A stretch of DNA of 64,000 nucleotides from Candidatus Poriferisocius sp. (GCF_965219775.1 NZ_OZ244793.1:2039634-2103633); one strand, 5' to 3'. Numbered from the stretch's first letter, positions 25,434 to 39,896 are shown. Program-made: numbers and translations. Notes: generated by a model from the sequence alone, not told the origin.

Positions 25434-27755
25434 ATGGATCAACGCGACCTGTCGGACATCTCCCAGGCCCTGCTGGCCGAGCAGGCTCAGCGGGAGGCCG
25501 AGGGCGCCGCCACCGACCACGTCGAGGTCCGACGAGACGAGGAACTCCCCGGAGTGGGCGATGCCCCCCTGACGTTTCGGGCGGGTATCGCCGCGGGCGG
25601 GTTCGGGGTCATCGGCGTGCTGGGCACCCTAGACGCGGTGGACGCCCTGCAGATCGCCATCCCGTCGCTGCTCGGTCCCGAAATCCAGGACAGCCTGAAC
25701 GTCTCCGACGCCGGCTTGGCCGTCATCGGGGTCGGCGGGCTGATCTCCTCCACGCTGTTCGCCGTTCCCATGGGCCGGCTGGCCGACCGGGTGAACCGGA
25801 TGCGGCTGGTGGGTGTGGCCACCCTGCTGTGGAGCCTGGCCATGTTCACCCGGGGCTTCCAGGCCACCGCCCTGGGGTTCTTCCTGGTCGGGGTGCTCAT
25901 CGGCGTGGGCACGTCCAACACGTTCCCGGTGCAGGGCGCGGTCCTGGCCGACGCCTACCCCATTGCCGCCCGAGGCCGCATCTACGCGGTCAAGAACGTG
26001 CTCGGGCGGGCCGGGGAACGCATCGCCCCCCTGCTGGTCGGCGGCCTGATGCTGCTGGTGGACGACAACTGGCGCTGGGCCTACTGGGTGTTCGCCTGGC
26101 CCACGGTGGCTCTCGGGATATGGGCGCTGTTCGTGAAGGATCCCCCGCGGGGCCAGTACGAACAGTTGTCCACGATCGGCGAGGTCATGGCCGAGGACCC
26201 CGATCAGCCCCGGGTCTCGCTGGCGGCAGTGTGGCAACGGCTCATGGCCATCCGCACCCTGAAGCTGGCCTGGATCGCCTTCAGCGTCATCGTCTTCTCC
26301 CAGATCGGGGCGGGCTTTCTGGTGAACCTCTTCCTTGAGGACCGCTGGGGCCTGTCCCCGTTCGAGCGGGCGATGATCGCCTTCGTGCCCGGCATGCTCG
26401 CCTTCGCCGCCGCGCCGTGGGCCGCGGGCAAGTACGACCGCCTCTACAGCCAGAGCCCGGCCAAGGCGCTGGCCTGGGTGGGGGCGCTGTTCTTTCCCAT
26501 CGCGGTGGCCGTGCCCATTCAGTTCTTCATGCCCCACCCGGTGGCGTTCGCCGCGGTGGGCATCATCCCGTCGGTGCTCGGCGTGGTGGTTTTCGGCATG
26601 ATCTCGCCGTTGTTCGTGGGCATCGTGCCCTATCGCCTCCGGGCTCAGGCCACGGCGCTGTCGATGATGGTGATCTTCCTGGGCGGCGGGGTGCTGGGGC
26701 CCATCGTGGCCGGGTTGTTGTCCGACGCGACCGACGAGCGCACCGCCATCCTCATCGTGGCCGTGCCGTTCAAGATTCTCGGGGGGATCCTGCTCATCTG
26801 GGGGGCACGCCACATCCGCCGCGACCTGTCGCTGGTCGTGGACGAGATCGAAAAGGACAAGGCCGACCGGCAGTGGCGCCAAGACCACCCTGACGAGCTT
26901 CCGGCGGTGTCGCTGCGCGACGTCGATTTCTCCTACGGCCCCGTGCAGGTGCTCTTCGGCATCGACCTCCACGTCGACCGGGGGGAGGCCCTGGCGCTGC
27001 TCGGCACCAACGGGGCCGGAAAATCCACCATCCTGCGGGTCATCAGCGGCTTGGCCGTGCCCTCCCGGGGAGTGGTCTGGCTCCACGGCCGCGACATCAC
27101 CCTGACGTCGCCCCAGACCCGGGTGGACCTCGGCATACAGCAACTGCCCGGCGGCAAGGCCGTGTTTCCGACCCTGTCGGTCATCGACAACCTCCGTACC
27201 GCCGGGTGGACGCTCCGCAAGGACCGCCGCCGGTTGGCCGACCGGATCGAGGGCGTCCTGGAGTCGTTCCCCGTGCTGGCCGAACGACACCACGATCCCG
27301 CCGGCTCCCTGTCGGGCGGTCAACAGCAGATGCTGGCGTTGGCCATGGTGCTGATCCACGAGCCCGACGTGCTGCTCATCGACGAACTCTCCTTGGGGTT
27401 GGCCCCTGCGGTGGTGGGCGATCTGCTCGATCTGGTGGAACAGCTCAAGGCCCGAGGTCAAACCATGATCATCGTGGAGCAGTCGCTGAACGTGGCGGCC
27501 GCCATCGCCGATCGGGCGGTGTTCATCGAAAAGGGTCACGTGCGCTTCGACGGTCCCACCGCCGAACTGGCCGCCCGGGGCGACATTGCCCGGGCCGTGT
27601 TCCTCGGAGGGGCGAGCCAGGCCACCGGCGCCGGCAGTCCCGACCCCGCGGGTGAGCCAGGCCCCGCCGGCAGTCCCGACCCCGCGGGTGAGCCCGACCT
27701 CGGAGGCGACTCCGACAACGGAGGTGACCTCGACAACGGAAGTAGCGGCCGGTGA
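25434..27755 (+). CDS. fusion protein: MFS-type 12-TM domain + LivF-like ABC ATPase domain + repetitive acidic tail
   Basis: One uninterrupted 773-codon frame. MFS motif A is GRLADRVNRMR, followed by many TM helices. The nucleotide-binding domain then carries GTNGAGKST, LSGGQQQMLAL and LLIDELSLGLAP. Confidence 0.8.
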   Translation: MDQRDLSDISQALLAEQAQREAEGAATDHVEVRRDEELPGVGDAPLTFRAGIAAGGFGVIGVLGTLDAVDALQIAIPSLLGPEIQDSLNVSDAGLAVIGVGGLISSTLFAVPMGRLADRVNRMRLVGVATLLWSLAMFTRGFQATALGFFLVGVLIGVGTSNTFPVQGAVLADAYPIAARGRIYAVKNVLGRAGERIAPLLVGGLMLLVDDNWRWAYWVFAWPTVALGIWALFVKDPPRGQYEQLSTIGEVMAEDPDQPRVSLAAVWQRLMAIRTLKLAWIAFSVIVFSQIGAGFLVNLFLEDRWGLSPFERAMIAFVPGMLAFAAAPWAAGKYDRLYSQSPAKALAWVGALFFPIAVAVPIQFFMPHPVAFAAVGIIPSVLGVVVFGMISPLFVGIVPYRLRAQATALSMMVIFLGGGVLGPIVAGLLSDATDERTAILIVAVPFKILGGILLIWGARHIRRDLSLVVDEIEKDKADRQWRQDHPDELPAVSLRDVDFSYGPVQVLFGIDLHVDRGEALALLGTNGAGKSTILRVISGLAVPSRGVVWLHGRDITLTSPQTRVDLGIQQLPGGKAVFPTLSVIDNLRTAGWTLRKDRRRLADRIEGVLESFPVLAERHHDPAGSLSGGQQQMLALAMVLIHEPDVLLIDELSLGLAPAVVGDLLDLVEQLKARGQTMIIVEQSLNVAAAIADRAVFIEKGHVRFDGPTAELAARGDIARAVFLGGASQATGAGSPDPAGEPGPAGSPDPAGEPDLGGDSDNGGDLDNGSSGR
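27630..27694 (+). repeat. two copies of a 29-nt unit (GCCGGCAGTCCCGACCCCGCGGGTGAGCC) with 36-nt period, inside the coding tail of the MFS::ABC gene
   Basis: Copy 1 is 27630-27658 and copy 2 is 27666-27694, identical by eye. They encode AGSPDPAGEP twice. Confidence 0.85.
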
Positions 27756-30574
27756 TCCTGGCGTTGACGGTGAGCCGCCAGTTCGTGTTCATCGGCGCCA
27801 TCGAAGGGTTGGCCTACGCCTTGCTGGCGTTGGGGGTGATCCTCATCTACCGCTCCAGCCGCACCATCAACTTCGCCGTGGGCGCCGCCGGGGTGTTGGC
27901 CGCCCAGGTCATGTCCCAGGTGGTGATCCGTTACGGCGCCCCCTACTGGGCGGGGTTCGCGGTGGCCCTGGCCACCGGCGCGGCCTTCCTGGCCGTGGCC
28001 GAGTTGACGGTGGTACGGCGGTTGTTCACCGCCCCTCGGGTGATTCTGTTGGTGGCCACCATCGGGCTCTCCCAGTTGGCCGAGGCACTCATGTTCGCCC
28101 TGCCCGAGCCGTCGGTGGAAGAGAACCGGCGCGACTTCCCCTCGCCGTGGACCACCGAGTACGAGTGGCTGGGCGTGCGCATCGTGGGGAGCGAGCTGTT
28201 GCTGCTCGTGGCGTCGGCCACCGCGGTGGTGGCGCTGGCCCTGTGGATGGCGCGATCGGCGTGGGGTCGAGCCATCCGGGCCTCGGCTGCCGATCCCGAC
28301 CGTGCCCGTCTGGCCGGGATCAACCCCGGCACCGTCTCCACCATCGTGTGGACGCTCACCGGCACGTTTGCCGCTTTGGTCACCGTGCTGCTGGAGGCGG
28401 GCAGCACCCGGGCCTTCATCGGTGCCAGCCCCGGCTACTCGCTCATGACCCGGGTGCTGGTGGTGGCGGTGTGCGCGTCGTTCCTGCATTTCGGCCGGGC
28501 CGTGACCGCGGGGATCATCTTCGGGATCATCGAGGCCATCGTGCGGGTGAACTACCCCCTCGACTTGGGGCGGTTCGAAGCCGTACTCCTGGTGGCCGCA
28601 GTGATCGCGGTGTTCGTGACCACCCGGCGGGACTCCGGCGACGAACGGGAGTCGTTCAGCTTCGCCCCCCGGGTCCGACCCATCCCGCCGTCGGTGCGCG
28701 AGGTGTGGTGGGTGCGCCACCACACCCGCATCCTGGGCACCGTCGCGGTGGCCGTCGCCGCCATCATCCCGGTGATCATCACCGCGGCCAGCCGGACTTT
28801 CCGCTTCAGCGAGATCATCCTGGTGGCCCTGGCCGCCCTGTCGCTGGTGGTGCTCGGAGGCTGGAGCGGTCAGATCTCCCTCGGCCAGGGCGCCTTCGCC
28901 GGGCTGGGGGCGCTGACCACCGCCGCCCTGGTTTCCGGTCGGGATCTGGGCCTGGGTGCCGCCGGCCTCGACGTGTCGGTGCCGATTCCCGAACTGCATT
29001 TCCTCTTGGCGGTGGTGGTGGCCACGGCGGCCACCGCCGTGGTGGCGGTGATCATCGGGCTGGGGGCGTTGCGGGTACGCGGCCTGTTGCTGGCGGTCAT
29101 CACCCTGGCGTTCGCGGTGAGCGCCGAGAAGTTCTTTTTCCGACGGCCGTTCCTGAGCGACAACAGCACCACCTCGGCCCTGCTCGAGCGAGCCTCCCTC
29201 GGGCCGGTGGACCTGGCCCCCCAGCGCACCTACTACTACCTGGCCCTGGGCGCCCTCATCGTGGGCATCGTGTTTGTGGCCCGCCTGCGACGAACCGGTG
29301 TGGGACGGAGGATCATCGCCACCCGGGAGAATCCCGACGGTGCGGCCTCGTTCACCGTCTGGCCGACCGGGGCCAAGATCACCGCTTACGCGGTGAGCGG
29401 CGGCATCGCCGGATTCGCCGGGGCGCTCCTCGGTGGGTTGTACGCCACCATCCTGTTCTCGTTCTTCTCGGCCGGACGGTCCATCGAGATTCTGGCGGTG
29501 GCGGTGATCGGTGGCATCGGCTCGGTGGCCGGGCCGGTGCTGGGGGCGTTGTGGGTGGTGGGCCTGCCCGCGTTCTGGCCGGACTCCCCGACCGTCGCCC
29601 TGCTCACCAGCAGCCTCGGCATCCTGATCCTGCTGATGTACGTGCCCGGAGGGTTCGTGCAGCTTTGGTACTTGGCTCGTGACGGCTTGTTGCGGTGGTA
29701 CGCCCAGCGACGACCCGAACAGCCCGCGCCTGCGATCACGATCCCCCGACGGGATCCGGTTCCGGCCCCGCCCCACGACACTGCCCTGGCCGCCACCGGG
29801 GTCGCGGTGCGATTCGGGCCCCGGGTTGCCGTGAACCAGGTGGATTTGCGGGTGGCCCACGGCGAGATCGTCGGTCTGATCGGCACCAACGGTGCGGGCA
29901 AGACCACGTTCATGAACGCGGTGGCCGGTCTGGTACCCGCCCGGGGAACGGTCATGATCTACGGCACCGACGTGTCGTCGCTCCCCTCCCACCGCCGCCA
30001 CGCGCTCGGGTTGGGACGGACGTTCCAGGCGGCGCCGCTGTTTCCCGACCTCACCGTGCAGGAAACCGTCCAGGTGGCCCTGGAGTCCGGCCAAACCACC
30101 CGGTTTGTGCCCGCGGCCGTGCCCGGTTTGGGCGGGGCCGCCCACGAGCGCCGCCAGGCAGCCGCTGCTCGTGACCTGATCGACTTCCTCGGCCTGGGCG
30201 ACTACGCCAACTCCTTCGTGGCCGAGCTGTCCACCGGCACCCGACGCATCGTGGAGCTCACCTGTCTGGTGGCCGGAGGGAACCGCCTCTTGTGCCTCGA
30301 CGAGCCCACCGCCGGCGTGGCCCAGCGCGAAGCCGAAGCCCTGGTGCCGCTGTTGCACGGCATTCGGCGGGAACTGGACGCCTCGGTGCTGATCATCGAG
30401 CACGACATGCCCATGATCACCGCCATCAGCGACCGCATCTATTGCCTGGAACAAGGGACCGTCATTGCTGAGGGTCTCCCGGAGGACGTGCGCGACAATC
30501 CCCAGGTGATCGCCGCCTATCTGGGAACCGACGAACGGGCCATCGCCCGCTCCGACGTCGGGGCGGCCCCGTGA
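27752..30574 (+). CDS. triple fusion: LivH-like permease + LivM-like permease + LivG-like ABC ATPase
   Basis: A GTG start forms a GTGA overlap with the upstream stop. The LivH-like N-terminus is GAIEGLAYALLALGVILIYR. The LivM-like core is GWSGQISLGQGAFAGLGA. The nucleotide-binding domain carries GTNGAGKTT, LSTGTRRIVEL and LLCLDEPTAGVA. Confidence 0.85.
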   Translation: MILALTVSRQFVFIGAIEGLAYALLALGVILIYRSSRTINFAVGAAGVLAAQVMSQVVIRYGAPYWAGFAVALATGAAFLAVAELTVVRRLFTAPRVILLVATIGLSQLAEALMFALPEPSVEENRRDFPSPWTTEYEWLGVRIVGSELLLLVASATAVVALALWMARSAWGRAIRASAADPDRARLAGINPGTVSTIVWTLTGTFAALVTVLLEAGSTRAFIGASPGYSLMTRVLVVAVCASFLHFGRAVTAGIIFGIIEAIVRVNYPLDLGRFEAVLLVAAVIAVFVTTRRDSGDERESFSFAPRVRPIPPSVREVWWVRHHTRILGTVAVAVAAIIPVIITAASRTFRFSEIILVALAALSLVVLGGWSGQISLGQGAFAGLGALTTAALVSGRDLGLGAAGLDVSVPIPELHFLLAVVVATAATAVVAVIIGLGALRVRGLLLAVITLAFAVSAEKFFFRRPFLSDNSTTSALLERASLGPVDLAPQRTYYYLALGALIVGIVFVARLRRTGVGRRIIATRENPDGAASFTVWPTGAKITAYAVSGGIAGFAGALLGGLYATILFSFFSAGRSIEILAVAVIGGIGSVAGPVLGALWVVGLPAFWPDSPTVALLTSSLGILILLMYVPGGFVQLWYLARDGLLRWYAQRRPEQPAPAITIPRRDPVPAPPHDTALAATGVAVRFGPRVAVNQVDLRVAHGEIVGLIGTNGAGKTTFMNAVAGLVPARGTVMIYGTDVSSLPSHRRHALGLGRTFQAAPLFPDLTVQETVQVALESGQTTRFVPAAVPGLGGAAHERRQAAAARDLIDFLGLGDYANSFVAELSTGTRRIVELTCLVAGGNRLLCLDEPTAGVAQREAEALVPLLHGIRRELDASVLIIEHDMPMITAISDRIYCLEQGTVIAEGLPEDVRDNPQVIAAYLGTDERAIARSDVGAAP

Positions 30575-33517: not shown

Positions 33518-34519
33518 GTGGTTGTACTCGATGTTCAGCCGGCCCCGACGATGGAGGACGCCCATCGAGCGGCCGAGGTGATTTGTCGTGCGCTGAACCC
33601 GGCCGAGGTCATGGTGTTCGGTTCGGTCGCCCGAGGCCTCCAGCACCCTCTCTCCGACATTGACCTGGTGGTGCTGTTTGACGATCTTGGGGACTACAAG
33701 AGGCGCGGCGAGTTGGCAAGGCGCGCGGAGGCGGCCGTCACCGAAGCCACTGGCTTTCCCGCCAACGTCAAGGTGACGGACAGGCCGGAATGGAAAGTGC
33801 GGACGGAGTTGGTGAAGTCGTCCTTCGAGGCCCACATTGCGTCGCACGCAGTGCGGCTGGTGACTCGGCCCTCCAATGCACAAATCGATTGGAACAAGGA
33901 GATTGGTTTGGCCCCCAGCGATGCGCAGCAGGCAGAGAACTCCTTGGGCAACACGTTGAATTCCCTGGACAACCTCCGAGGGATCCTCAGCCCCTACGAA
34001 CACGAGGTGGGAGCTCTGGAGGCTGGAGACGCAGTGACGGCGCGAGAGGTGCTGCAGAATCGGATGCTGCGGGTTTGTTCCCTGTCGCAAGAGGTGATGG
34101 AGAACGCCCTGAAGTCCCTGATTCACGCCTTGAGAGGAGAACACCCGAGGAGGGTCCACAGCATCGAAGGGCTGATGGATTTTGCTCAAGCCCAGTTGGA
34201 TGCATCCACGGGCGCCCTCCTTCTCTCGGCCTTGGACGGATTGCAGGAGGGCAAGATCTCGGGTTGGCGCCAGGGGGCGAGCTATCCCGACGACATGGAC
34301 ATGGCTGTCAGTCGCGAAGATGCGACACCGGAGTACGCCTGGGCCATGGCCACCGCGGCCGCGCGGGTGGCCCAGAGGTGCGCCGAGACGATCGAAGCCC
34401 AGTTCGGCCATCCCACAACGCGAACCGCCGAAGTCATCACTCGGTGCAATGACCTGACCAAATGGATGGCCACCAGAGCCACCCCCGGCCAAGACCCCGA
34501 CCACCACCCCACCCCGTAG
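33518..34519 (+). CDS. single-chain minimal nucleotidyltransferase (MNT) - HEPN domain fusion protein
   Basis: The N-terminal pol-beta NTase motif is VFGSVARGLQHPLSDIDLVVLFDD (GS...DxD). The C-terminal helical HEPN-like region is ENALKSLIHALRGEHPRRVHSIEGLMDF (compare the xxTHDLxxL motif of PF05168-type HEPN). An alternative start is ATG 33551. Confidence 0.7.
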   Translation: MVVLDVQPAPTMEDAHRAAEVICRALNPAEVMVFGSVARGLQHPLSDIDLVVLFDDLGDYKRRGELARRAEAAVTEATGFPANVKVTDRPEWKVRTELVKSSFEAHIASHAVRLVTRPSNAQIDWNKEIGLAPSDAQQAENSLGNTLNSLDNLRGILSPYEHEVGALEAGDAVTAREVLQNRMLRVCSLSQEVMENALKSLIHALRGEHPRRVHSIEGLMDFAQAQLDASTGALLLSALDGLQEGKISGWRQGASYPDDMDMAVSREDATPEYAWAMATAAARVAQRCAETIEAQFGHPTTRTAEVITRCNDLTKWMATRATPGQDPDHHPTP

Positions 34520-34574
34520 ACCAGGCTGCCTTCTAGGGCCGCCCCCTTGAGCGGTGGGGTCTCGGGATGGTTGC

Positions 34575-34601
34575 GGGGTCCCACCGAGAGGATGGAACCC
34601 C
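34575..34601. terminator. possible weak bidirectional hairpin between convergent genes
   Basis: GGGGTCC (34575-34581) pairs with GGAACCCC (34594-34601) with one bulge and a 12-nt loop. A modest T-containing stretch follows. This was hand-folded only. Confidence 0.2.
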
Positions 34602-34627
34602 CCGAATTCTTGTATCGGACAATTGAG

Positions 34628-37153
34628 TCACGTTTCGATCACGACTGGGACTTCGGCTTCGATCGCAACCGGAGTCCAGAGGTCCACCTCGACATCCGGT
34701 GAGTCGATCGACACGATCAGCGCGTACCGCACACCGGCCTCGCTACGGTCGCGGGCGCTTCGTTCCTTCCACCAGCCGGTGACCGGATAGACGGCAATCG
34801 CCCCTCGGGCCGCAAGTTCGGCTGCGGGTCCAGTCCAGTGATCCACATGCAGGGATCCTCGGACCCGCTCTCGCGGACCGAGCAGCCACTGATCAGCGTC
34901 GCTGTCCGAGCTGGGTCGCTGCTCGTCCTCCGACCGGGCGAGCCTGTTGATTCGCTTGCAAAACTCGCCGTTGCCTTCAGTGGCACGCCGCACATCAAAT
35001 CGGAGACCATGCGACGCGTATCGGAAGCGTTGCGCCCAACCTCGACGAGCCGGGCTCGGCTGAATGAAGTACGACAGCACGACTCGCATCTGCAACTCAA
35101 CCTCGCCAAGATCGCCCAGGGCATCAGCGGGCCATGGGAGGTTGTGAAGGTGCATCTCACGCATCTTGCCGTCGAGGTAGGGACGGATCCGGTGCTGCCC
35201 GATCAGCGTGACCGAGTCGTTTGCGGAGCGTAGCGCCCGGTTCATGTCGGGCACGCCCCATCCGTAGCGCCGCAGGCTCGCCACGGCTCCTTGCCGGTTG
35301 GTCCCGCTGAAATGCTTCGTCATGGAGTCGGTCCAGCGGGCCGAATGAACAATGAGTCCACGAAGTGCCTCCGGCCACAAGTGCGGGTACTCCGTCGCCA
35401 GGCGTTGGGCCAGATACGCTGCTTGCGCCGTTGCTGGGCTCGTACCGGTGACAGTCGTAAGTGGTCGACCGCCTAGCGCGGGTGCTCGGGTAGTGAGGAT
35501 TTGCAGATCTGGAGGGGTGTCGATGGAGCGATCGATTGGTGACACCGCTGCGTTTCCCCCTTCGAGAACGACCTCCGGCTTGTGGGGCCATTGGGAGCGA
35601 AAACCAACTGAGGTCCGACTGAAGGGCGACAGTTCCCCCGCTGATGCAAGAGGCACCCACCCCTCGAAGTCCTCGTGAACAATGTGGGAAAACTGGGTGA
35701 AGGCACCGACGGTCAAGGCGTTCCAAGCCTGACCTGGATCCTCAACTGGTTCGACGTCACTACGATCGAGATGATCTTCATCCAGAGGCACGCGGACGTT
35801 GCCCGCTGAGATGATGAACAGCCGTTCCGCTCCGCCGTCGGGTTCATCTATGTAGACAAGATCGCCATCGGCGGAAGACACTGCGCGGCCTGCCGCCAGA
35901 GCGTCGACCGCGGCCGACCACGCGGAAGGCTGACCGAGGTCCGATGGGTCTGCGGCGGAGTTCGGGGCCGTCACCGCGAGCGCGAAGGACCGGCGTCGCT
36001 GAGGGTGTTCGATCTCGATAATCGATGTCGCCTGGGCGGTGATGGCGCCGTACAGCTCAGGGTCGTTCTTGCCCGAGTCTGGAAGAATCTTGACCGACTC
36101 GATGCGGCCCTGGACCTGGATTGGCCCGTCGACCAAGAAGCACTCAGCAAGATCCCCGTGAATTGCGAGACCGGCCATCTCGGTGCCGTGCCCTCGACGA
36201 TCATCGCTGCCCCACCGAGGATCCACGCTGTGAGCGTCATTCGGCGCAATCGCGATCCGGAGCAGCGGGTGTTCTGTCGTCACTCCTGTGTCCAGCAGGC
36301 ACGTCACTGCACGATCATCGGCTGGCACGACCAGTCGCCCAGCCAACTCGTCCACAAACTCGCCTTGTTCGGATGCTGGCAGATCCGCCAAGAACTGTGC
36401 AGGGTCCACAGGGTGACGAAGCTCAGAAATGTCGTCAAGTAGATTGAGGGCTGAGCCGAGCTGTCCGGATGTGGCTCGCACGAGGACCACCAAGCGATCT
36501 TCCAAGACCAGTCGTTGGCGCCCGATCGTAACCCCGATGATTTCGGCGAAGTCTTGGAGTCGTGAGTTCACTCCTTCCCGATTCCGAAGCCATACCTCCC
36601 ACCACACTGCCTTCTCACTGTCGGGAAAAGCGTCTTCGTCGTCGGTCCAGAGGGCACGAAGTGTCGCCAGTCGCAACTCTGCAATTCTCTCCACCAGATT
36701 CTTGTTCTTGGGATTGCCGCGATTCGTGTCTTCGGAGACGTAGTCCTCGAATCGCTTTGTGAACCTCCCAATCCAACCCTCGGGAACGAAGACTGTTGCC
36801 AATTGCACAGACTCCCCCTCGACCTCACGTGTCGTCACTGCGCACAGCTCGGGGTGAACGGATCCCTGCTGAGGCTCAAGTGAGGTCAGTGCAAGCTCGA
36901 AACCAGGATGCGACTGGAACTGCACATAGATGCCCTCCAAGGCACCTTCGACTTGAATGGCGTCGTGATCTTCCTTACGCCTCTGGGCCGCTTCCGCCGC
37001 GGCGTCCAGTTGATCGATGAGTTTGCGGCCGTGCTGTATTCGGTCGGCAGGTGATGGCGGGGCTCCCGACTCGCGTCCCGATGTCGGCGGGGCGTAGTCA
37101 TCAACCCAAGGAGCCCGCGTGACGATGACGTGGCGCCTGTTCCGTTCTGCCAT
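34628..37153 (-). CDS. cytoplasmic S8 (subtilisin-like) serine peptidase with ~280-aa N-terminal domain of unknown family (IetS-like)
   Basis: The catalytic set is CLLD288TG (codon 36290-36292), GH322GTEMAG, SAGN452 and GTS572PATAQ (codon 35438-35440). There is no signal peptide or TM helix. The start lies 9 nt downstream of the AAA ATPase stop. Confidence 0.85.
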   Translation of the reverse strand: MAERNRRHVIVTRAPWVDDYAPPTSGRESGAPPSPADRIQHGRKLIDQLDAAAEAAQRRKEDHDAIQVEGALEGIYVQFQSHPGFELALTSLEPQQGSVHPELCAVTTREVEGESVQLATVFVPEGWIGRFTKRFEDYVSEDTNRGNPKNKNLVERIAELRLATLRALWTDDEDAFPDSEKAVWWEVWLRNREGVNSRLQDFAEIIGVTIGRQRLVLEDRLVVLVRATSGQLGSALNLLDDISELRHPVDPAQFLADLPASEQGEFVDELAGRLVVPADDRAVTCLLDTGVTTEHPLLRIAIAPNDAHSVDPRWGSDDRRGHGTEMAGLAIHGDLAECFLVDGPIQVQGRIESVKILPDSGKNDPELYGAITAQATSIIEIEHPQRRRSFALAVTAPNSAADPSDLGQPSAWSAAVDALAAGRAVSSADGDLVYIDEPDGGAERLFIISAGNVRVPLDEDHLDRSDVEPVEDPGQAWNALTVGAFTQFSHIVHEDFEGWVPLASAGELSPFSRTSVGFRSQWPHKPEVVLEGGNAAVSPIDRSIDTPPDLQILTTRAPALGGRPLTTVTGTSPATAQAAYLAQRLATEYPHLWPEALRGLIVHSARWTDSMTKHFSGTNRQGAVASLRRYGWGVPDMNRALRSANDSVTLIGQHRIRPYLDGKMREMHLHNLPWPADALGDLGEVELQMRVVLSYFIQPSPARRGWAQRFRYASHGLRFDVRRATEGNGEFCKRINRLARSEDEQRPSSDSDADQWLLGPRERVRGSLHVDHWTGPAAELAARGAIAVYPVTGWWKERSARDRSEAGVRYALIVSIDSPDVEVDLWTPVAIEAEVPVVIET

Positions 37154-37162
37154 AGTCCGGCC

Positions 37163-38140
37163 TCATTCAGGCGGACTGTCCGACCGATTTCGCCACCTGA
37201 GCGCCTCCACGAGAAAATCTGTCCTGACCTGGAGGGTGCCAGCCAAGATCGAATCCTTGGCTGCCTGTTCAGCAGCGGCCGTGACCTCCGAGTGGCTCAG
37301 CCCCTTGGCAGCGGTGGACACTCCACGCCAGTCCACCGCCCGAAGGTCGAGCGACGCAAGGCGAGCGCGTATCACTTGCTTTGCGATGGCCCCAGTCGGC
37401 ATCGGGTAGTCGAGGGTTGCATCGAATCGTCGATACAGCGCTCGGTCGAGATGCTCAGGCAGGTTCGACGTGGCGACGATAACGCTGTCGGACACATCTT
37501 GCTCGAGGAACTGCAGGAAGGAGTTCAGCACTCTTCGGATCTCACCGACATCATTGCTCAGACCACGCGCACCGGCGAGTGCGTCGACTTCATCGAACAG
37601 GTATACGCCTGCGATCTCCGCAACCTGGTCAAAGATGAGGCGTAGTTTCGCCGCAGTCTCTCCCATGAACTTCGTAATCAAGCCCTCTAGTCGGACCGTG
37701 AAGAGCGGAAGATGCAGCTCGCCAGCCAGCACCTTGGCCGTCAGCGTCTTACCCGTCCCCGGAGGGCCCACGAGCAGCAGACGGCGCTGAGGCGCGAAGC
37801 CCGTTGCCCGAAGGCGATCCCGTTGCCGCTGTTCCAGCAACACTCGACGCAGCAACGACAGGACGTCGTTGTCCAGCGACAGGTCTGACAACCGCTGTTC
37901 CGGGTACTCCACGGAAAGCAAGGCCGCCAGATCACCGCGCGGCGAAGCCACCGGCGTCGGTCCGGGTCTCGGCACTCGCCCCTTCGACGCGTCGATCAGA
38001 TCTCGCAGTTGCTGCGCGTACCCTGCGTGGCCGCTGCGCGCTTCCCGAGCAGCCATCTGGAGCGCCACGGCGTAGAACTGGTCGTCGTCACCCGCGGCGT
38101 GACTCTTGATCAGGGCCTTCACTTGAGCCGCAGTCGCCAT
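37163..38140 (-). CDS. AAA+ family ATPase (IetA-like)
   Basis: 325 aa. Walker A is GPPGTGKT (residues 125-132) and Walker B is VYLFDEVD (about residues 179-186). A sensor/arginine region follows (VIVATSNLPEHLDRALYRRFD). An N-terminal helical region of about 110 aa precedes these. Confidence 0.85.
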   Translation of the reverse strand: MATAAQVKALIKSHAAGDDDQFYAVALQMAAREARSGHAGYAQQLRDLIDASKGRVPRPGPTPVASPRGDLAALLSVEYPEQRLSDLSLDNDVLSLLRRVLLEQRQRDRLRATGFAPQRRLLLVGPPGTGKTLTAKVLAGELHLPLFTVRLEGLITKFMGETAAKLRLIFDQVAEIAGVYLFDEVDALAGARGLSNDVGEIRRVLNSFLQFLEQDVSDSVIVATSNLPEHLDRALYRRFDATLDYPMPTGAIAKQVIRARLASLDLRAVDWRGVSTAAKGLSHSEVTAAAEQAAKDSILAGTLQVRTDFLVEALRWRNRSDSPPE

Positions 38141-38518
38141 CTCCTACACCTCACCTCGTCCGTACACGGGTGGCGGCACCCCCTGACCCATCACCGTAGT
38201 TCAGGCCTCCGGGCTGCCAGAGGTCCAATCCATTGCCGACATCAAGGCCTCAGTCGTGTTCGCGGCCCCTCCAATATGAACCGCGTGGGCGACCGATTCC
38301 TGCACGGCCAGTTCGAGCCTGGCCCCGGGAACACCACGCCTGCCGCGCACAAGGCCTCCTTGCACGGCAAACCCGTTCCCATCCGGCCATCTCCCCCTGT
38401 AGCGTTCGGTGGCTCCCCCCCCGCCGCATTCTGCCCTCCGAGGTTGCTCCTGCCTGTCACCGGTGTCGGTATGCTGTTGGCAGAGAAGCCCCAGTTCACA
38501 GCCCCTGGGCTTACCACG

Positions 38519-38524
38519 AAGGAG
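38519..38524 (+). promoter_or_regulatory. Shine-Dalgarno AAGGAG, 6 nt upstream of GTG 38531
   Basis: A canonical AAGGAG with a 6-nt spacer (ATCGAA) precedes an in-frame GTG that opens the small ORF ending at 38722. Confidence 0.4.
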
Positions 38525-38530
38525 ATCGAA

Positions 38531-38722
38531 GTGGAGACTCAGACTGTCCCTCGAGAGGACATCGTTGAGATGTTGCGATGGAATGCCGAAGCGACCGGTC
38601 TGGGACTGCGCGATTTCTACGAACTCGGCAAGGATGACCGCCTCGACCACCCCCTGCTCAGAGACCTCTGGCTCATCTGGGGCGACGTCCTGACAGAATC
38701 CGACCTGCTCTCGGCAGCGTGA
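38531..38722 (+). CDS. small hypothetical protein (63 aa; 83 aa if ATG 38471 is used), first gene of a three-gene cassette
   Basis: The sequence is VETQTVPREDIVEMLRWNAEATGLGLRDFYELGKDDRLDHPLLRDLWLIWGDVLTESDLLSAA. Its stop overlaps the next gene's GTG (GTGA). No family recognised. Confidence 0.4.
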   Translation: METQTVPREDIVEMLRWNAEATGLGLRDFYELGKDDRLDHPLLRDLWLIWGDVLTESDLLSAA

Positions 38723-39369
38723 ACGACACACTCAAATCACACCCCTCTGCGGGGGCCTACTTGGGCCGTGGAATCTACGATGTTGCAGAGGTCGCGCGCC
38801 TCACAAAGTGCAGTAGGCGTCGGGTGGAAGGGTGGACCAGGACCGGTGCCGTGAGGGAACCCCTGCTGTCGGGAGAACTGGACGGCCTGTTCAGCTTTTG
38901 GGACCTGCTCAGCCTCCGCGTCATCGGTGAACTTGTGGATCGAGGAGTGCCACGAGCTGAAATCGCCGAGGGGGCCAACTACCTGGCCGTTAGGCTGGGT
39001 ACTCACAGGCCATTCGCCCATCAGGGTCTTGCCACGGTTGGCCGGGGGTTCTTTGCCGACATTGGGAGTTGGGTAGATGTCGGCAGGGGCGGTCAACAGG
39101 CCTTCCAGGTTGTGATTGAACCCCTACTTAAGCCAATCACATTCAATGAATCGGGTATGGCAGCCATTTGGAGACCGCATCTGGGAGTCTGGGTGAACCC
39201 AGAGGTCCAAGCAGGGGCACCCTGTGTCGATGGCACGAGGACACCCACGGCCACACTCGCTCAATTGCATAACTCTGGGTTGAGCATAGAGGACTTGTCG
39301 GATGACTACCGACTCCAATATGAACAAGTGCAAGCTGCCATTGATTTTGAAGCCAGCATGGCGGCGTGA
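38719..39369 (+). CDS. HTH + DUF433 domain protein (VapB45-like putative antitoxin/regulator)
   Basis: The N-terminal HTH-like segment is GIYDVAEVARLTKCSRRRVEGWTRTG. The C-terminal DUF433 signature is NPEVQAGAPCVDGTRTPTATLAQLHNSGLSIEDLSDDYRLQYEQVQAAIDF. Confidence 0.75.
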   Translation: MNDTLKSHPSAGAYLGRGIYDVAEVARLTKCSRRRVEGWTRTGAVREPLLSGELDGLFSFWDLLSLRVIGELVDRGVPRAEIAEGANYLAVRLGTHRPFAHQGLATVGRGFFADIGSWVDVGRGGQQAFQVVIEPLLKPITFNESGMAAIWRPHLGVWVNPEVQAGAPCVDGTRTPTATLAQLHNSGLSIEDLSDDYRLQYEQVQAAIDFEASMAA

Positions 39370-39896
39370 GCCCTCAACCGACAAAACCCAGACTACGCCC
39401 TAAGATTCGACTCCTATTCGACGAAAATCTGCCTTGGAGAGTGGCTGCAGCCTTGGAGACACTCAACTTTCACTCTACCTATGTCGGGGATAAGAACCAC
39501 CCTGATGTTCCAACTAGGGGCTCATCAGATGAGGAAGTTCTGAGGTATACTGAAGGGGTAAATCGAACTATTGTGACTTCCAACTACGACATGATCTTGC
39601 TGTGCACTGAGCGCAAGCAATCGGTGATTTGGATAGATGCACGAGGCCGTGACTTTCGATTTGAAGAACTTGTTCTGCTAGTCTTTAAGAATATCTCCGA
39701 CTGGAATGACAGGCTCAAACAAGCTTCACTTCCAATATGCCTTCAGGCTATGAGGACGAAGACTGTCACGCTGACTATGGAAGAGGCCGCGCAGCGTGCC
39801 CACTCGAGGATGCTTCGCAGCTCCGCCAAAAAACGGAGAAACAAGTCCCATACACCGCTGGGCCCTCTCCTGTCCCCTGAAGATGAATCGAAGTGA
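39366..39896 (+). CDS. DUF5615 (PIN-like/Mut7-C-like) putative toxin nuclease with extended basic C-terminal tail
   Basis: A GTGA overlap links it to the DUF433 gene. IRLLFDENLPWRVAAAL ... IVTSNYDM matches the DUF5615 core. This gene has the lowest G+C in the window (30/60 and 31/60 in two hand-counted lines). Confidence 0.7.
   Translation: MSPQPTKPRLRPKIRLLFDENLPWRVAAALETLNFHSTYVGDKNHPDVPTRGSSDEEVLRYTEGVNRTIVTSNYDMILLCTERKQSVIWIDARGRDFRFEELVLLVFKNISDWNDRLKQASLPICLQAMRTKTVTLTMEEAAQRAHSRMLRSSAKKRRNKSHTPLGPLLSPEDESK

What the first reader, a model, noticed from the sequence alone, without database searches (positions are those of the whole stretch)
34628..38140. Cytoplasmic AAA+ ATPase / S8 subtilase operon (IetAS-like): an ATPase-protease immune module with unknown trigger and substrate
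**Seen in the sequence.**
- A 325-aa AAA+ protein carries GPPGTGKT and VYLFDEVD.
- Nine nt downstream lies an 841-aa protein with a complete subtilase set: D288, H322, N452 and S572.
- That protein has no signal peptide or TM segment.
- It also has ~280 N-terminal residues and a ~200-residue C-terminal region that I cannot assign to any family.

**Established knowledge.**
- An ATPase plus subtilase gene pair named ietAS was reported as an anti-phage system in the Gao et al. 2020 defence-gene screen.
- To my knowledge its sensing mechanism, protease target and the role of the ATPase remain undescribed.

**Inference.**
- This is a diverged high-GC-host member of that class.
- An intracellular, ATPase-gated subtilase implies regulated proteolysis of a host or phage target, for example by abortive infection.
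- The unassigned N-domain is a candidate sensor or autoinhibitory prodomain.
Basis: partly seen in the sequence, partly recalled or inferred. Interest (0 to 1): 0.72.

Follow-up and report, generated by a model that had tools for sequence, protein, structure and literature searches.

The report
Ordinary IetAS toxin–antitoxin defence gene pair
These two genes are a typical, intact copy of the already known IetAS module, in which a cytoplasmic subtilisin-like protease toxin is kept in check by an AAA+ ATPase; it sits in a small island of toxin–antitoxin genes in an uncultured actinobacterium and adds one more member to a very large family whose mechanism is still unsolved.

Summary
On the minus strand, a 325-aa AAA+ ATPase (37163-38140) lies 9 nt upstream of an 841-aa signal-less S8 subtilase (34628-37153), with every quoted motif in place.

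It is a genuine IetAS pair.
- **Profiles:** it matches the PADLOC models (IetA E=6e-64, IetS E=6e-37).
- **Founding pair:** it aligns end to end with the Agrobacterium Ti-plasmid pair (55% and 41% identity). It scores as well as that prototype does in the same models.
- **Gene order:** IetA lies directly upstream of IetS on the same strand in 80 of 82 other loci from many phyla.

So it is not unusually diverged. The "unassignable" N- and C-terminal regions are conserved, IetS-specific domains.

- IetAS was first defined as a toxin–antitoxin system, with the protease as toxin and the ATPase as antitoxin.
- A Bacillus homologue acts by abortive infection, triggered by phage SPbeta YosG.
- Substrates and mechanism remain unknown as of 2026.

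New here:
- The N-domain models as two ACT/ferredoxin-like modules, not a classical I9 propeptide.
- IetA keeps a canonical translocating pore loop.
- A conserved IetS N-terminal tail appears to dock onto the protease body.

Verdict: new member of a known kind, modest interest.

The parts
37163..38140 (-). ietA: a 325-aa classical-clade AAA+ ATPase and the predicted antitoxin. It has a conserved helical N-domain (about residues 1-95), Walker A K131, Walker B D183/E184, pore loop-1 K157-F158-M159-G160-E161, sensor-1 N226 and SRH arginines R237/R238.
   Evidence: PADLOC IetA PDLC02196 matches at E=5.8e-64 over residues 2-315. Pfam AAA covers 121-244. It is 55% identical to Ti-plasmid IetA. The best solved relatives are p97/Cdc48 D2, NSF and PAN. 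All listed motif residues are invariant, or always aromatic at position 158, in 81 of 81 homologues.
37154..37162 (-). The 9-nt ietA-ietS spacer. A GAGG Shine-Dalgarno (37161-37164) overlaps the ietA TGA stop, which suggests translational coupling.
   Evidence: Read directly from the sequence. The closest relative (69% identical IetS) has the same 9-nt spacing.
34628..37153 (-). ietS: an 841-aa cytoplasmic S8 subtilase and the predicted toxin/effector.
   Evidence: Pfam Peptidase_S8 matches at E=7.8e-51. PADLOC IetS matches at E=5.5e-37. It is 41% identical to Ti-plasmid IetS over residues 37-841. There is no signal peptide or transmembrane segment. The AF2 model has mean pLDDT 87.4.
37094..37153 (-). 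IetS N-terminal tail (residues 1-20) carrying the conserved motif R4-x-R6-x-H8-hydrophobic(3)...E18-x-Y20. It is predicted to dock as beta-strands on the catalytic or C-terminal body.
   Evidence: H8 is present in 82 of 82 non-gap sequences, E18 in 67 of 84, and Y/F20 in 82 of 84. Strands 4-7, 9-11 and 16-18 have pLDDT 83-89 in the full-length model. The same residues are coil with pLDDT 47-59 when residues 1-282 are modelled alone. The docking site itself was not seen because no coordinates were available.
36308..37153 (-). IetS-specific N-domain (residues 1-282). It consists of a long helix (38-62), two beta-alpha-beta-beta-alpha-beta ACT/ferredoxin-like modules (74-162 and 183-246) and a helical linker (251-273). 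It is a candidate regulatory or sensor domain.
   Evidence: The AF2 model has pLDDT 89 and pTM 0.81. Foldseek against PDB gives only weak ACT-domain pairs, with E about 1e-3 and TM 0.2-0.35. Foldseek against viral structures gives nothing. There is no Pfam hit. The domain family has 1366 clusters at 50% identity with E<=1e-3; in the 150 best-scoring clusters listed the domain is always N-terminal, and no other Pfam domain turned up in the six atypical ones checked.
35255..36307 (-). S8 catalytic domain (residues 283-633) with D288, H322, N452 (oxyanion) and S572.
   Evidence: The full model matches pro-subtilases in PDB, with 3afg at E=2e-17.
34631..35254 (-). Conserved IetS C-terminal, mainly beta domain (residues 634-841). 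Its motifs are LSYFIxPxP..RG, YASHGLRF, GSLHxDxW and PVxGWWKE.
   Evidence: It is conserved across phyla. PADLOC IetS models cover residues 470-816. There is no Pfam hit. Its fold was not searched separately because the structure jobs were exhausted.
38141..38530 (.). Divergent intergenic region that should hold the ietAS promoter.
   Evidence: No convincing ORF is present. No sigma-70 consensus was found, which is not informative for this phylum.
33518..39896 (.). Low-GC islet (GC 0.48-0.65 against about 0.69 in the flanks) that carries ietAS between two other toxin-antitoxin-like modules. These are an NTase+HEPN fusion (33518-34519, +) and an operon of a 63-aa ORF, a MerR-HTH/DUF433 gene and a DUF5615 gene (38531-39896, +). 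This is context, not part of the system.
   Evidence: GC profile. Domain hits. No tRNA, integrase or flanking repeats were found.

Best explanation
This is a canonical two-gene IetAS module: a toxin-antitoxin and abortive-infection system. It was probably acquired horizontally as part of a small toxin-antitoxin islet in the chromosome of an uncultured Acidimicrobiia bacterium.

- **IetS** is a cytoplasmic subtilase whose proteolytic activity is the toxic or effector function.
- **IetA** is a Cdc48/PAN-like AAA+ unfoldase made from the same, probably translationally coupled, transcript. It keeps IetS harmless.

Membership and anatomy are shown here. The next points are taken from experiments on homologues:
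- The protease is toxic and the ATPase neutralises it.
- The protease active site is needed for phage defence.
- Defence in a Bacillus homologue is abortive and is triggered by a single phage protein.

My proposed mechanism is inference. An IetA hexamer uses ATP and its conserved aromatic pore loop to hold or continually remodel IetS. It probably acts through the conserved IetS N-terminal tail and the ACT-like N-domain. A phage cue that binds the N-domain or IetA, or that interrupts IetA supply, frees the active protease. The protease then cleaves essential host and/or phage proteins and stops growth before phage release.
For: **Membership**
- PADLOC IetA matches at E=5.8e-64 and IetS at E=5.5e-37.
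- In the same models the Ti-plasmid prototype scores 239 and 85.6 bits, against 214.8 and 125.1 here.
- Full-length alignments to the Ti-plasmid pair give 55% and 41% identity.
- Alignments to an E. coli plasmid pair give 49% and 38% identity.

**Obligate pairing**
- IetA lies directly upstream on the same strand in 80 of 82 loci spanning at least 10 phyla.

**Competent enzymes**
- The catalytic tetrad is invariant in 84 of 84 homologues.
- In IetA, Walker A, Walker B, sensor-1 and the arginine fingers are invariant in 81 of 81 homologues.
- The IetA pore loop K/R-[F/Y]-[M/L]-G-E is aromatic in 81 of 81 homologues.
- The closest solved relatives of IetA are substrate-threading unfoldases.

**Location and coupling**
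- IetS is cytoplasmic.
- A 9-nt spacer with a Shine-Dalgarno overlapping the ietA stop suggests translational coupling.

**Tail docking**
- The IetS N-terminal tail is ordered only in the full-length model.

**Mobile context**
- The region shows a GC dip and has toxin-antitoxin neighbours.
- The closest relative has different flanking genes.

**Function in homologues**
- Toxin-antitoxin genetics are reported for pTiC58, SGI1 and Mycoplasma (PMC5006074, PMC8562856, PMC13069673).
- Abortive infection with the YosG trigger is reported in bioRxiv 10.1101/2022.08.27.505566.
- The protease is required for defence and ietA cannot be mutated alone (PMC13069673).
Against: - No experiment exists for this locus or this host.
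- The nearest characterised relatives (Ti plasmid, SGI1-like) were shown to stabilise replicons, not to block phage. Anti-phage data come from other IetAS family members that I could not compare with this pair.
- The NCBIfam equivalog 'IteA_antiphage' cut-off is not reached (188 against 510 bits). The Ti prototype fails it too (198.8 bits).
- How an unfoldase neutralises a protease is unknown. My tail/pore-loop model rests on conservation and on a difference between two AlphaFold models, without coordinates or a complex prediction.
- No promoter, trigger or substrate could be identified.
Confidence: 0.8

Rival explanations
1. The pair works here mainly as an addiction (post-segregational killing) module that stabilises the low-GC islet. 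It has no meaningful role in phage defence in this host.
For: - The closest experimentally studied relatives (Ti-plasmid IetAS at 55%/41% identity, and SGI1 SgiAT) were characterised as stability toxin-antitoxin systems (PMC5006074, PMC13069673).
- The family is abundant on plasmids: 472 records, of which 325 are conjugative.
- The neighbours in the window are other toxin-antitoxin modules.
Against: - Toxin-antitoxin and abortive-infection roles are not exclusive.
- IetAS homologues protect against phage in three independent studies (Gao 2020 as cited; bioRxiv 10.1101/2022.08.27.505566; PMC13069673).
- The islet shows no replication, integration or transfer genes that would need stabilising.
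Confidence: 0.3
2. IetA is an activator rather than an inhibitor. On a phage cue, the unfoldase strips or unfolds the autoinhibitory N-domain of IetS, in the manner of prodomain removal, and so switches the protease on. This is 'ATPase-gated' in the positive sense.
For: - The full IetS model resembles pro-forms of subtilases (3afg, EpiP, PCSK9).
- The N-domain precedes the catalytic domain, as a propeptide does.
- The conserved pore loop argues for real threading activity.
Against: - Genetics in pTiC58, SGI1, Mycoplasma and ietHAS all show the ATPase neutralising toxicity. Loss of the ATPase alone is lethal or cannot be cloned (PMC5006074, PMC8562856, PMC13069673).
- The N-domain on its own gives no I9 or propeptide match by Pfam or Foldseek.
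Confidence: 0.12
3. It is an ordinary exported or housekeeping subtilase that happens to lie next to an unrelated AAA+ chaperone.
For: S8 proteases are usually secreted, and AAA domains are common.
Against: - There is no signal peptide or transmembrane segment.
- Both proteins match IetA/IetS-specific profiles and the prototype over their full length.
- Adjacency is conserved in 80 of 82 loci across phyla.
Confidence: 0.02

Closest known systems
IetAS of Agrobacterium Ti plasmid pTiC58 (Yamamoto et al. 2009). Here it is represented by the pair on pTi1D1487 (NZ_CP119539.1, 45641-49141). That plasmid is 214,233 bp, which from memory is the length of pTiC58; sequence identity to pTiC58 was not checked.
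   Same: - Gene order and protein sizes match (328/836 aa against 325/841 aa).
- The genes are tightly spaced (3 nt against 9 nt).
- Identity is 55% for IetA and 41% for IetS, and the alignment is collinear over N-domain, S8 domain and C-domain.
- The catalytic and ATPase motifs are the same.
- Scores in the PADLOC IetA/IetS models are comparable.
   Different: - This copy is chromosomal in an Acidimicrobiia genome rather than on a conjugative plasmid.
- It lacks the DUF6088 gene found upstream of ietA on the Ti plasmid.
- The Ti IetS has small insertions (about residues 143-155 and 320-325) that are absent here.
SgiAT (S026/S025) of Salmonella Genomic Island 1, and the enterobacterial plasmid ATPase/S8 pairs
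   Same: - The architecture is the same two-gene ATPase-then-subtilase arrangement.
- SgiAT is experimentally a toxin-antitoxin system with the protease as toxin (PMC5006074).
- The E. coli plasmid pair pMNCRE44_5 is 49% (IetA) and 38% (IetS) identical to the window pair over nearly full length.
   Different: - Those pairs are flanked by IS elements on resistance plasmids or islands.
- In pMNCRE44_5 the two genes overlap by 23 nt.
Anti-phage ietAS as tested by Gao et al. 2020, Stokar-Avihail et al. (B. cereus m1293) and Wu et al. (ECOR52), and the three-gene ietHAS variant (PMC13069673)
   Same: - It belongs to the same defence-system class in PADLOC.
- The protease active site is intact.
- The ATPase is presumed to be the antitoxin.
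   Different: - The NCBIfam equivalog model for the anti-phage IetA ('IteA_antiphage') is matched only at 188 bits against a 510-bit cut-off, so this belongs to a different subfamily.
- There is no SNF2 helicase (ietH) next to the pair.
- The trigger known for the Bacillus system (SPbeta YosG) has no bearing on this host.
Classical-clade AAA+ unfoldases (p97/Cdc48 D2, NSF, PAN/Rpt, FtsH)
   Same: IetA shares the Walker A and B motifs, sensor-1, the second region of homology with arginine fingers, and the K-[F/Y]-x-G-E pore loop.
   Different: - IetA has a single AAA module with a short family-specific N-domain.
- It is not fused to or known to feed a compartmental protease. It is paired with a subtilase that it restrains rather than supplies.
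Secreted pro-subtilases with an I9 propeptide (for example Tk-SP 3afg, subtilisin E)
   Same: The catalytic fold and residue order D-H-N-S match, and N- and C-terminal accessory domains flank the catalytic domain.
   Different: - IetS has no signal peptide.
- Its N-domain is 282 residues, built from two ACT-like modules, and has no I9 match.
- No evidence of autoprocessing is available.

Membership tests
IetAS (PADLOC 'ietAS' / DefenseFinder 'Gao_Iet'; founding pair on pTiC58) | AAA+ ATPase matching IetA profile HMMs | tested here: met
   PDLC02196 matches at E=5.8e-64 (214.8 bits) over residues 2-315 of 325, and three further IetA models also hit. The Ti prototype scores 239 bits in the same model.
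IetAS (PADLOC 'ietAS' / DefenseFinder 'Gao_Iet'; founding pair on pTiC58) | S8 subtilase matching IetS profile HMMs | tested here: met
   PDLC02198 matches at E=5.5e-37 (125.1 bits), and three further IetS models also hit. The Ti prototype scores only 85.6 bits. The DefenseFinder HMMs themselves were not available.
IetAS (PADLOC 'ietAS' / DefenseFinder 'Gao_Iet'; founding pair on pTiC58) | Full-length collinear homology of both proteins to the founding Ti-plasmid pair, including the non-catalytic N- and C-domains of IetS | tested here: met
   IetA is 55% identical. IetS is 41% identical over residues 37-841.
IetAS (PADLOC 'ietAS' / DefenseFinder 'Gao_Iet'; founding pair on pTiC58) | Operon order ietA then ietS, same strand, adjacent | tested here: met
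   The gap is 9 nt. The same arrangement is found in 80 of 82 other loci.
IetAS (PADLOC 'ietAS' / DefenseFinder 'Gao_Iet'; founding pair on pTiC58) | Intact protease active site and intact ATPase motifs | tested here: met
   D288, H322, N452 and S572 are present in IetS. K131, D183/E184, N226 and R237/R238 are present in IetA. All are family-invariant.
IetAS (PADLOC 'ietAS' / DefenseFinder 'Gao_Iet'; founding pair on pTiC58) | Cytoplasmic protease (no signal peptide or transmembrane segment) | tested here: met
   The maximum 19-residue hydropathy mean is 1.28, and there is no N-terminal hydrophobic region. This is a hydropathy test only.
IetAS (PADLOC 'ietAS' / DefenseFinder 'Gao_Iet'; founding pair on pTiC58) | IetS is toxic and IetA neutralises it | not testable with these tools
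   This needs expression experiments. It has been shown for homologues (PMC5006074, PMC8562856, PMC13069673).
IetAS (PADLOC 'ietAS' / DefenseFinder 'Gao_Iet'; founding pair on pTiC58) | Protection against phage (abortive infection) | not testable with these tools
   This has been shown only for other IetAS homologues, whose similarity to this pair was not measured (bioRxiv 10.1101/2022.08.27.505566; PMC13069673).
NCBIfam NF042959 'anti-phage ATPase IteA' (equivalog) | Score at or above the curated cut-off of 510 bits | tested here: not met
   The window IetA scores 188 bits. The Ti-plasmid IetA also fails, at 198.8 bits. The model therefore covers a narrower subfamily, and the window protein should not be filed as that equivalog.
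ietHAS (three-gene variant with SNF2 helicase IetH) | SNF2-family helicase gene in the operon | tested here: not met
   No such ORF flanks the pair. The neighbours are an NTase-HEPN gene and a 63-aa ORF / DUF433 / DUF5615 operon.
Classical secreted pro-subtilases (I9 propeptide) | Signal peptide plus an Inhibitor_I9-type propeptide | tested here: not met
   There is no signal peptide. Residues 1-282 give no Pfam hit at E<=10. Foldseek on the N-domain returns ACT-domain proteins, not propeptides.
Classical-clade AAA+ unfoldases | Walker A and B, sensor-1, SRH arginines and an aromatic pore loop-1 | tested here: met
   

The most novel reading that the evidence does not exclude
IetAS may be an 'unfoldase-clamped protease'. 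In this reading the conserved IetS N-terminal tail (R4-x-R6-x-H8...E18-x-Y20) is either a pseudo-substrate lying on the protease or the handle gripped by the IetA pore loops. The tandem ACT-like N-domain would be the sensor, for a phage protein or a small molecule, that breaks the clamp. Bacterial immunity has no described precedent for a AAA+ unfoldase acting as a continuous, ATP-burning antitoxin of a subtilase. If this is right, the features mapped here give the point mutants needed to test it.
Probability: 0.15. Interest if true: 0.7.

Novelty: new member of a known kind. Interest (0 to 1): 0.27.

Why it matters
As a locus it matters little. It is one more intact copy of a module found in thousands of genomes and hundreds of plasmids, here in a sponge-symbiont-like Acidimicrobiia lineage.

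The wider family is worth attention because its mechanism is still open as of a 2026 paper (PMC13069673): how a AAA+ ATPase restrains a cytoplasmic subtilase, what the protease cuts, and what is sensed. This analysis adds three family-wide features that make that question more testable:
- a strictly conserved translocating pore loop in IetA
- an IetS-specific N-domain built from two ACT-like modules with no close solved relative
- an invariant histidine in a short N-terminal tail that is predicted to dock on the protease body

Tried and rejected
- **Sequence search of IetS against PDB:** no hit at E<=0.01.
- **Pfam on isolated IetS pieces** (1-282, 64-170, 175-282, 635-841) at E<=10: nothing. 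PF27160, precomputed for some homologues, is not in the local Pfam copy, so it could not be named.
- **Foldseek of the N-domain:**
  - Against PDB, only weak ACT-domain pairs.
  - Against viral structures, nothing meaningful.
  - I therefore rejected 'classical I9 prodomain'.
- **Alternative architectures carrying the N-domain:** the 150 best representatives all have it at the N-terminus. Odd-length ones are fragments or frameshifts with partial S8 domains and no other Pfam domain.
- **Island borders:** no tRNA, no flanking direct or inverted repeats beyond chance, and no integrase or transposase.
- **Promoter and terminator scan:** no promoter-like site, and one terminator-like site inside ietS on the wrong strand.
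- **Exact-sequence look-up of IetS in public assemblies:** not on record.
- **A conserved third gene:**
  - Clustering of neighbours in about 85 loci found only a type III R-M Mod-like gene upstream in 7 loci.
  - A DUF6088 gene lies upstream in 2 plasmid loci.
  - Neither is present in the window.
- **Phage carriage:** only 9 phage records have an IetA-like ATPase at E<=1e-20, and only one has good coverage.
- **Founding papers:** Yamamoto 2009 (PMC2704731) and Gao 2020 (PMC7985843) are not held. Their content is cited second-hand through papers that are held.

Full report
**1. What is in the sequence**

The two ORFs are real and lie on the minus strand.
- ietA is 37163-38140 and encodes 325 aa.
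- ietS is 34628-37153 and encodes 841 aa.

- GPPGTGKT at residues 125-132 (K131) and VYLFDEVD at 179-186 in the ATPase
- D288, H322, N452 and S572 in the protease

The genes are 9 nt apart. A GAGG Shine-Dalgarno overlaps the ietA stop codon, which suggests coupled translation.

Neither protein has a hydrophobic stretch long enough for a signal peptide or membrane helix. The highest 19-residue hydropathy mean is 1.28.

Pfam sees only an AAA module (121-244) and a Peptidase_S8 domain (283-633). The protease regions 1-282 and 634-841 hit no Pfam family, even when scanned alone at E<=10.

**2. Is it IetAS?**

Yes.
- **PADLOC:** its defence models give IetA at E=5.8e-64, nearly end to end, and IetS at E=5.5e-37.
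- **Plasmid hits:** a tblastn of the protease against plasmids hit 472 records. These include Agrobacterium Ti plasmids, where the match covers residues 37-826.
- **Ti-plasmid locus:** pTi1D1487 is 214,233 bp, the pTiC58 type. It carries a 328-aa 'ATP-binding protein' 3 nt upstream of an 836-aa 'S8 family peptidase'. This gene pair was originally named ietAS.
- **Identity to the prototype:** the window proteins are 55% (IetA) and 41% (IetS, residues 37-841) identical to that pair. The alignment is collinear through the N-domain, catalytic domain and C-domain.

Two controls calibrate these scores.
- The Ti-plasmid proteins score 239 bits (IetA) and only 85.6 bits (IetS) in the same PADLOC models. 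The window pair is therefore as good an 'IetAS' as the prototype.
- The NCBIfam equivalog 'IteA_antiphage' is matched below its cut-off (188 against 510 bits). The Ti prototype fails it equally (198.8 bits). That model describes a narrower subfamily and is not a test of family membership.

An E. coli plasmid pair is 49% and 38% identical to the window pair. For comparison, the experimentally validated SGI1 SgiAT toxin-antitoxin pair is 50%/36% identical to pTiC58 IetAS (PMC5006074). The window pair thus sits comfortably inside the characterised range and is not unusually diverged.

**3. Co-occurrence**

A scan of one genome per species recovered more than 580 relatives of IetS. The 80 best loci span:
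- Actinomycetota
- Myxococcota
- Cyanobacteria
- Planctomycetota
- Acidobacteriota
- Chloroflexota
- Bacteroidota
- several proteobacterial classes

In 80 of 82 loci (these plus two plasmid loci) an IetA homologue lies immediately upstream on the same strand. The apparent exceptions are a contig end and split alignments.

The closest relative (69% identical IetS, from a metagenome) keeps the 9-nt spacer but has quite different flanking genes. This behaviour is typical of a mobile two-gene cassette.

No conserved third gene exists across these loci.
- A type III R-M Mod-like gene lies upstream in 7 loci. This echoes the reported co-localisation of RM III with ietAS (bioRxiv 10.1101/2022.08.21.504612).
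- A DUF6088 gene lies upstream in two plasmid loci.
- Neither gene is in the window, and there is no SNF2 helicase as in the ietHAS variant (PMC13069673).

**4. Context**

The window is chromosomal. It carries genes for a topoisomerase A subunit, ferrochelatase and glycoside hydrolases.

It belongs to an uncultured Acidimicrobiia lineage near the sponge-associated Candidatus Poriferisocius/Poriferisodalis. The ferrochelatase is 75-80% identical to those genomes, and the best species-level IetS matches are in the same group at 56-60%.

ietAS sits in a 6.4-kb stretch whose GC falls to 0.48-0.65 against about 0.69 around it. The stretch contains only toxin-antitoxin-like genes:
- a nucleotidyltransferase-HEPN fusion, convergent with ietS
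- a divergent operon of a 63-aa ORF, a MerR-HTH/DUF433 protein and a DUF5615 PIN-like protein

I found no tRNA, integrase or flanking repeats. How the islet was acquired is therefore not defined.

**5. Anatomy of the proteins**

*IetA.* It is a classical-clade AAA+ protein. Its best solved relatives are p97/Cdc48 D2, NSF and PAN. Across 81 diverse homologues the following are invariant: Walker A lysine, Walker B D-E, sensor-1 asparagine and the two SRH arginines. The pore loop K/R-[F/Y]-[M/L]-G-E always keeps its aromatic residue. That is the signature of an enzyme that threads polypeptide, not merely a nucleotide switch. Its first ~75 residues (N-terminal region) are also conserved.

*IetS full-length model.* The AlphaFold model is confident (pLDDT 87.4, pTM 0.75). 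As a whole it resembles pro-forms of subtilases such as Tk-SP, EpiP and PCSK9.

*IetS N-domain.* Modelled alone, residues 1-282 give pLDDT 89 and pTM 0.81. The domain consists of:
- a long helix
- two beta-alpha-beta-beta-alpha-beta modules
- a helical linker

Its only structural matches are weak hits to pairs of ACT domains, namely acetolactate synthase small subunit and aspartate kinase regulatory domains (E about 1e-3, TM 0.2-0.35). There are no viral matches and no I9 propeptide signal. An exhaustive search found this N-domain in 1366 clusters at 50% identity (906 at E<=1e-10). Among the 150 best-scoring clusters listed it is always at the N-terminus, and the six atypical-length proteins checked carry no Pfam domain other than S8. 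It is therefore an IetS-specific domain.

*IetS N-terminal tail.* The extreme N-terminus carries a conserved motif. H8 is present in every sequence, and R4, R6, E18 and Y/F20 are common. It forms confident beta-strands in the full-length model but is disordered when the N-domain is modelled alone. I infer that the tail packs against the catalytic or C-terminal domain. Without coordinates I could not see where.

**6. What is known**

- **Origin of the name:** IetAS was first defined as a plasmid-stabilising toxin-antitoxin system with the protease as toxin and the ATPase as antitoxin (Yamamoto 2009, as summarised in PMC13069673, PMC5006074 and PMC8562856).
- **Independent confirmation:** the same toxin-antitoxin logic was shown for SGI1 SgiAT and for Mycoplasma pairs (PMC5006074, PMC8562856).
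- **Anti-phage work:** the protease activity is needed for defence, ietA cannot be mutated alone, and a three-gene variant needs an extra helicase (PMC13069673).
- **Trigger:** the B. cereus system acts by abortive infection, and expression of SPbeta YosG alone triggers it (bioRxiv 10.1101/2022.08.27.505566).
- **Still open:** the 2026 paper states that the anti-phage mechanism remains unknown. I found no structural or substrate study in the held literature.

**7. How it most likely works**

*Shown here:* membership, intact active sites, coupling of the two genes, cytoplasmic location and a mobile toxin-antitoxin context.

*Imported from homologues:* the protease is toxic, the ATPase neutralises it, and defence in the tested Bacillus homologue is abortive.

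*Inferred:* IetA hexamers spend ATP to hold or remodel IetS. They would act through the conserved tail and/or the ACT-like N-domain. A phage cue, or loss of IetA supply, releases an active protease that cleaves essential proteins.

The main rivals are:
- a purely addictive role in this host, which is compatible with the same biochemistry
- an activator role for IetA, which the toxin-antitoxin genetics contradict
- an exported protease, which is effectively refuted

**8. Verdict**

This is a new member of a known kind in an under-sampled host lineage, and its interest as a locus is modest. Its value lies in family-wide features that could guide mechanistic experiments on any IetAS system:
- the conserved IetA pore loop
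- the ACT-like N-domain
- the N-terminal tail with its invariant histidine

Noticed in passing
window 33518-34519 (+): A 333-aa fusion of a minimal nucleotidyltransferase (NTP_transf_2/Polbeta, residues 20-73) with a HEPN domain (183-259). It gives weak hits to MntA antitoxin and to PADLOC candidate PDC-S09. This looks like a single-chain MNT-HEPN toxin-antitoxin-like protein. It is convergent with ietS, 108 nt away, and lies inside the same low-GC islet.
   Followed up: partly
window 38531-39896 (+): A three-gene operon with overlapping stop and start codons, divergent from ietA. It comprises a 63-aa ORF (38531-38722, with a GAAGGAG Shine-Dalgarno and no family hit), a MerR-type HTH fused to DUF433 (38719-39369), and a DUF5615 PIN-like protein (39366-39896). 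GC falls to 0.48 here, the lowest in the window. It is probably a DUF433/DUF5615 toxin-antitoxin pair with an extra small gene.
   Followed up: partly
L051, L061, L062, L065, L066, L072, L079 (upstream of ietA); e.g. L072 4029-6947: In 7 of about 85 ietAS loci, a large same-strand gene directly upstream of ietA resembles type III restriction-modification Mod methyltransferases (PDB 6k0w and 4zcf). This fits a published statistical co-localisation of RM III with ietAS. The gene is not present in the window.
   Followed up: partly
L001 2057-2650 and L088 938-1528: A DUF6088 family gene lies about 250 nt upstream of ietA on both the Agrobacterium Ti plasmid and a P. aeruginosa plasmid whose IetS is only 24% identical to the window's. 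It may be an accessory or regulatory gene in some IetAS subfamilies. It is absent from the window.
   Followed up: no
window 25434-27755 (+) and 27752-30574 (+): Two unusual transporter fusions lie upstream of the islet. One is an MFS_1 domain fused to an ABC ATPase domain (773 aa). The other is a branched-chain amino-acid permease fused to an ABC ATPase (940 aa). The ORF boundaries come from a mechanical ORF list and were not verified.
   Followed up: no
P0241 (179 aa), protein representative library: A 179-aa metagenomic fragment is 99% identical to IetS residues 1-170. A near-identical strain has therefore been sampled elsewhere, although the full-length protein is not on record by exact match.
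   Followed up: no
homologues P0040, P0043, P0045 and others: Many IetS homologues carry a precomputed Pfam hit, PF27160, in addition to Peptidase_S8. That accession is newer than the local Pfam copy, so I could not learn its name or which region it covers. It may already describe the IetS N-domain.
   Followed up: partly
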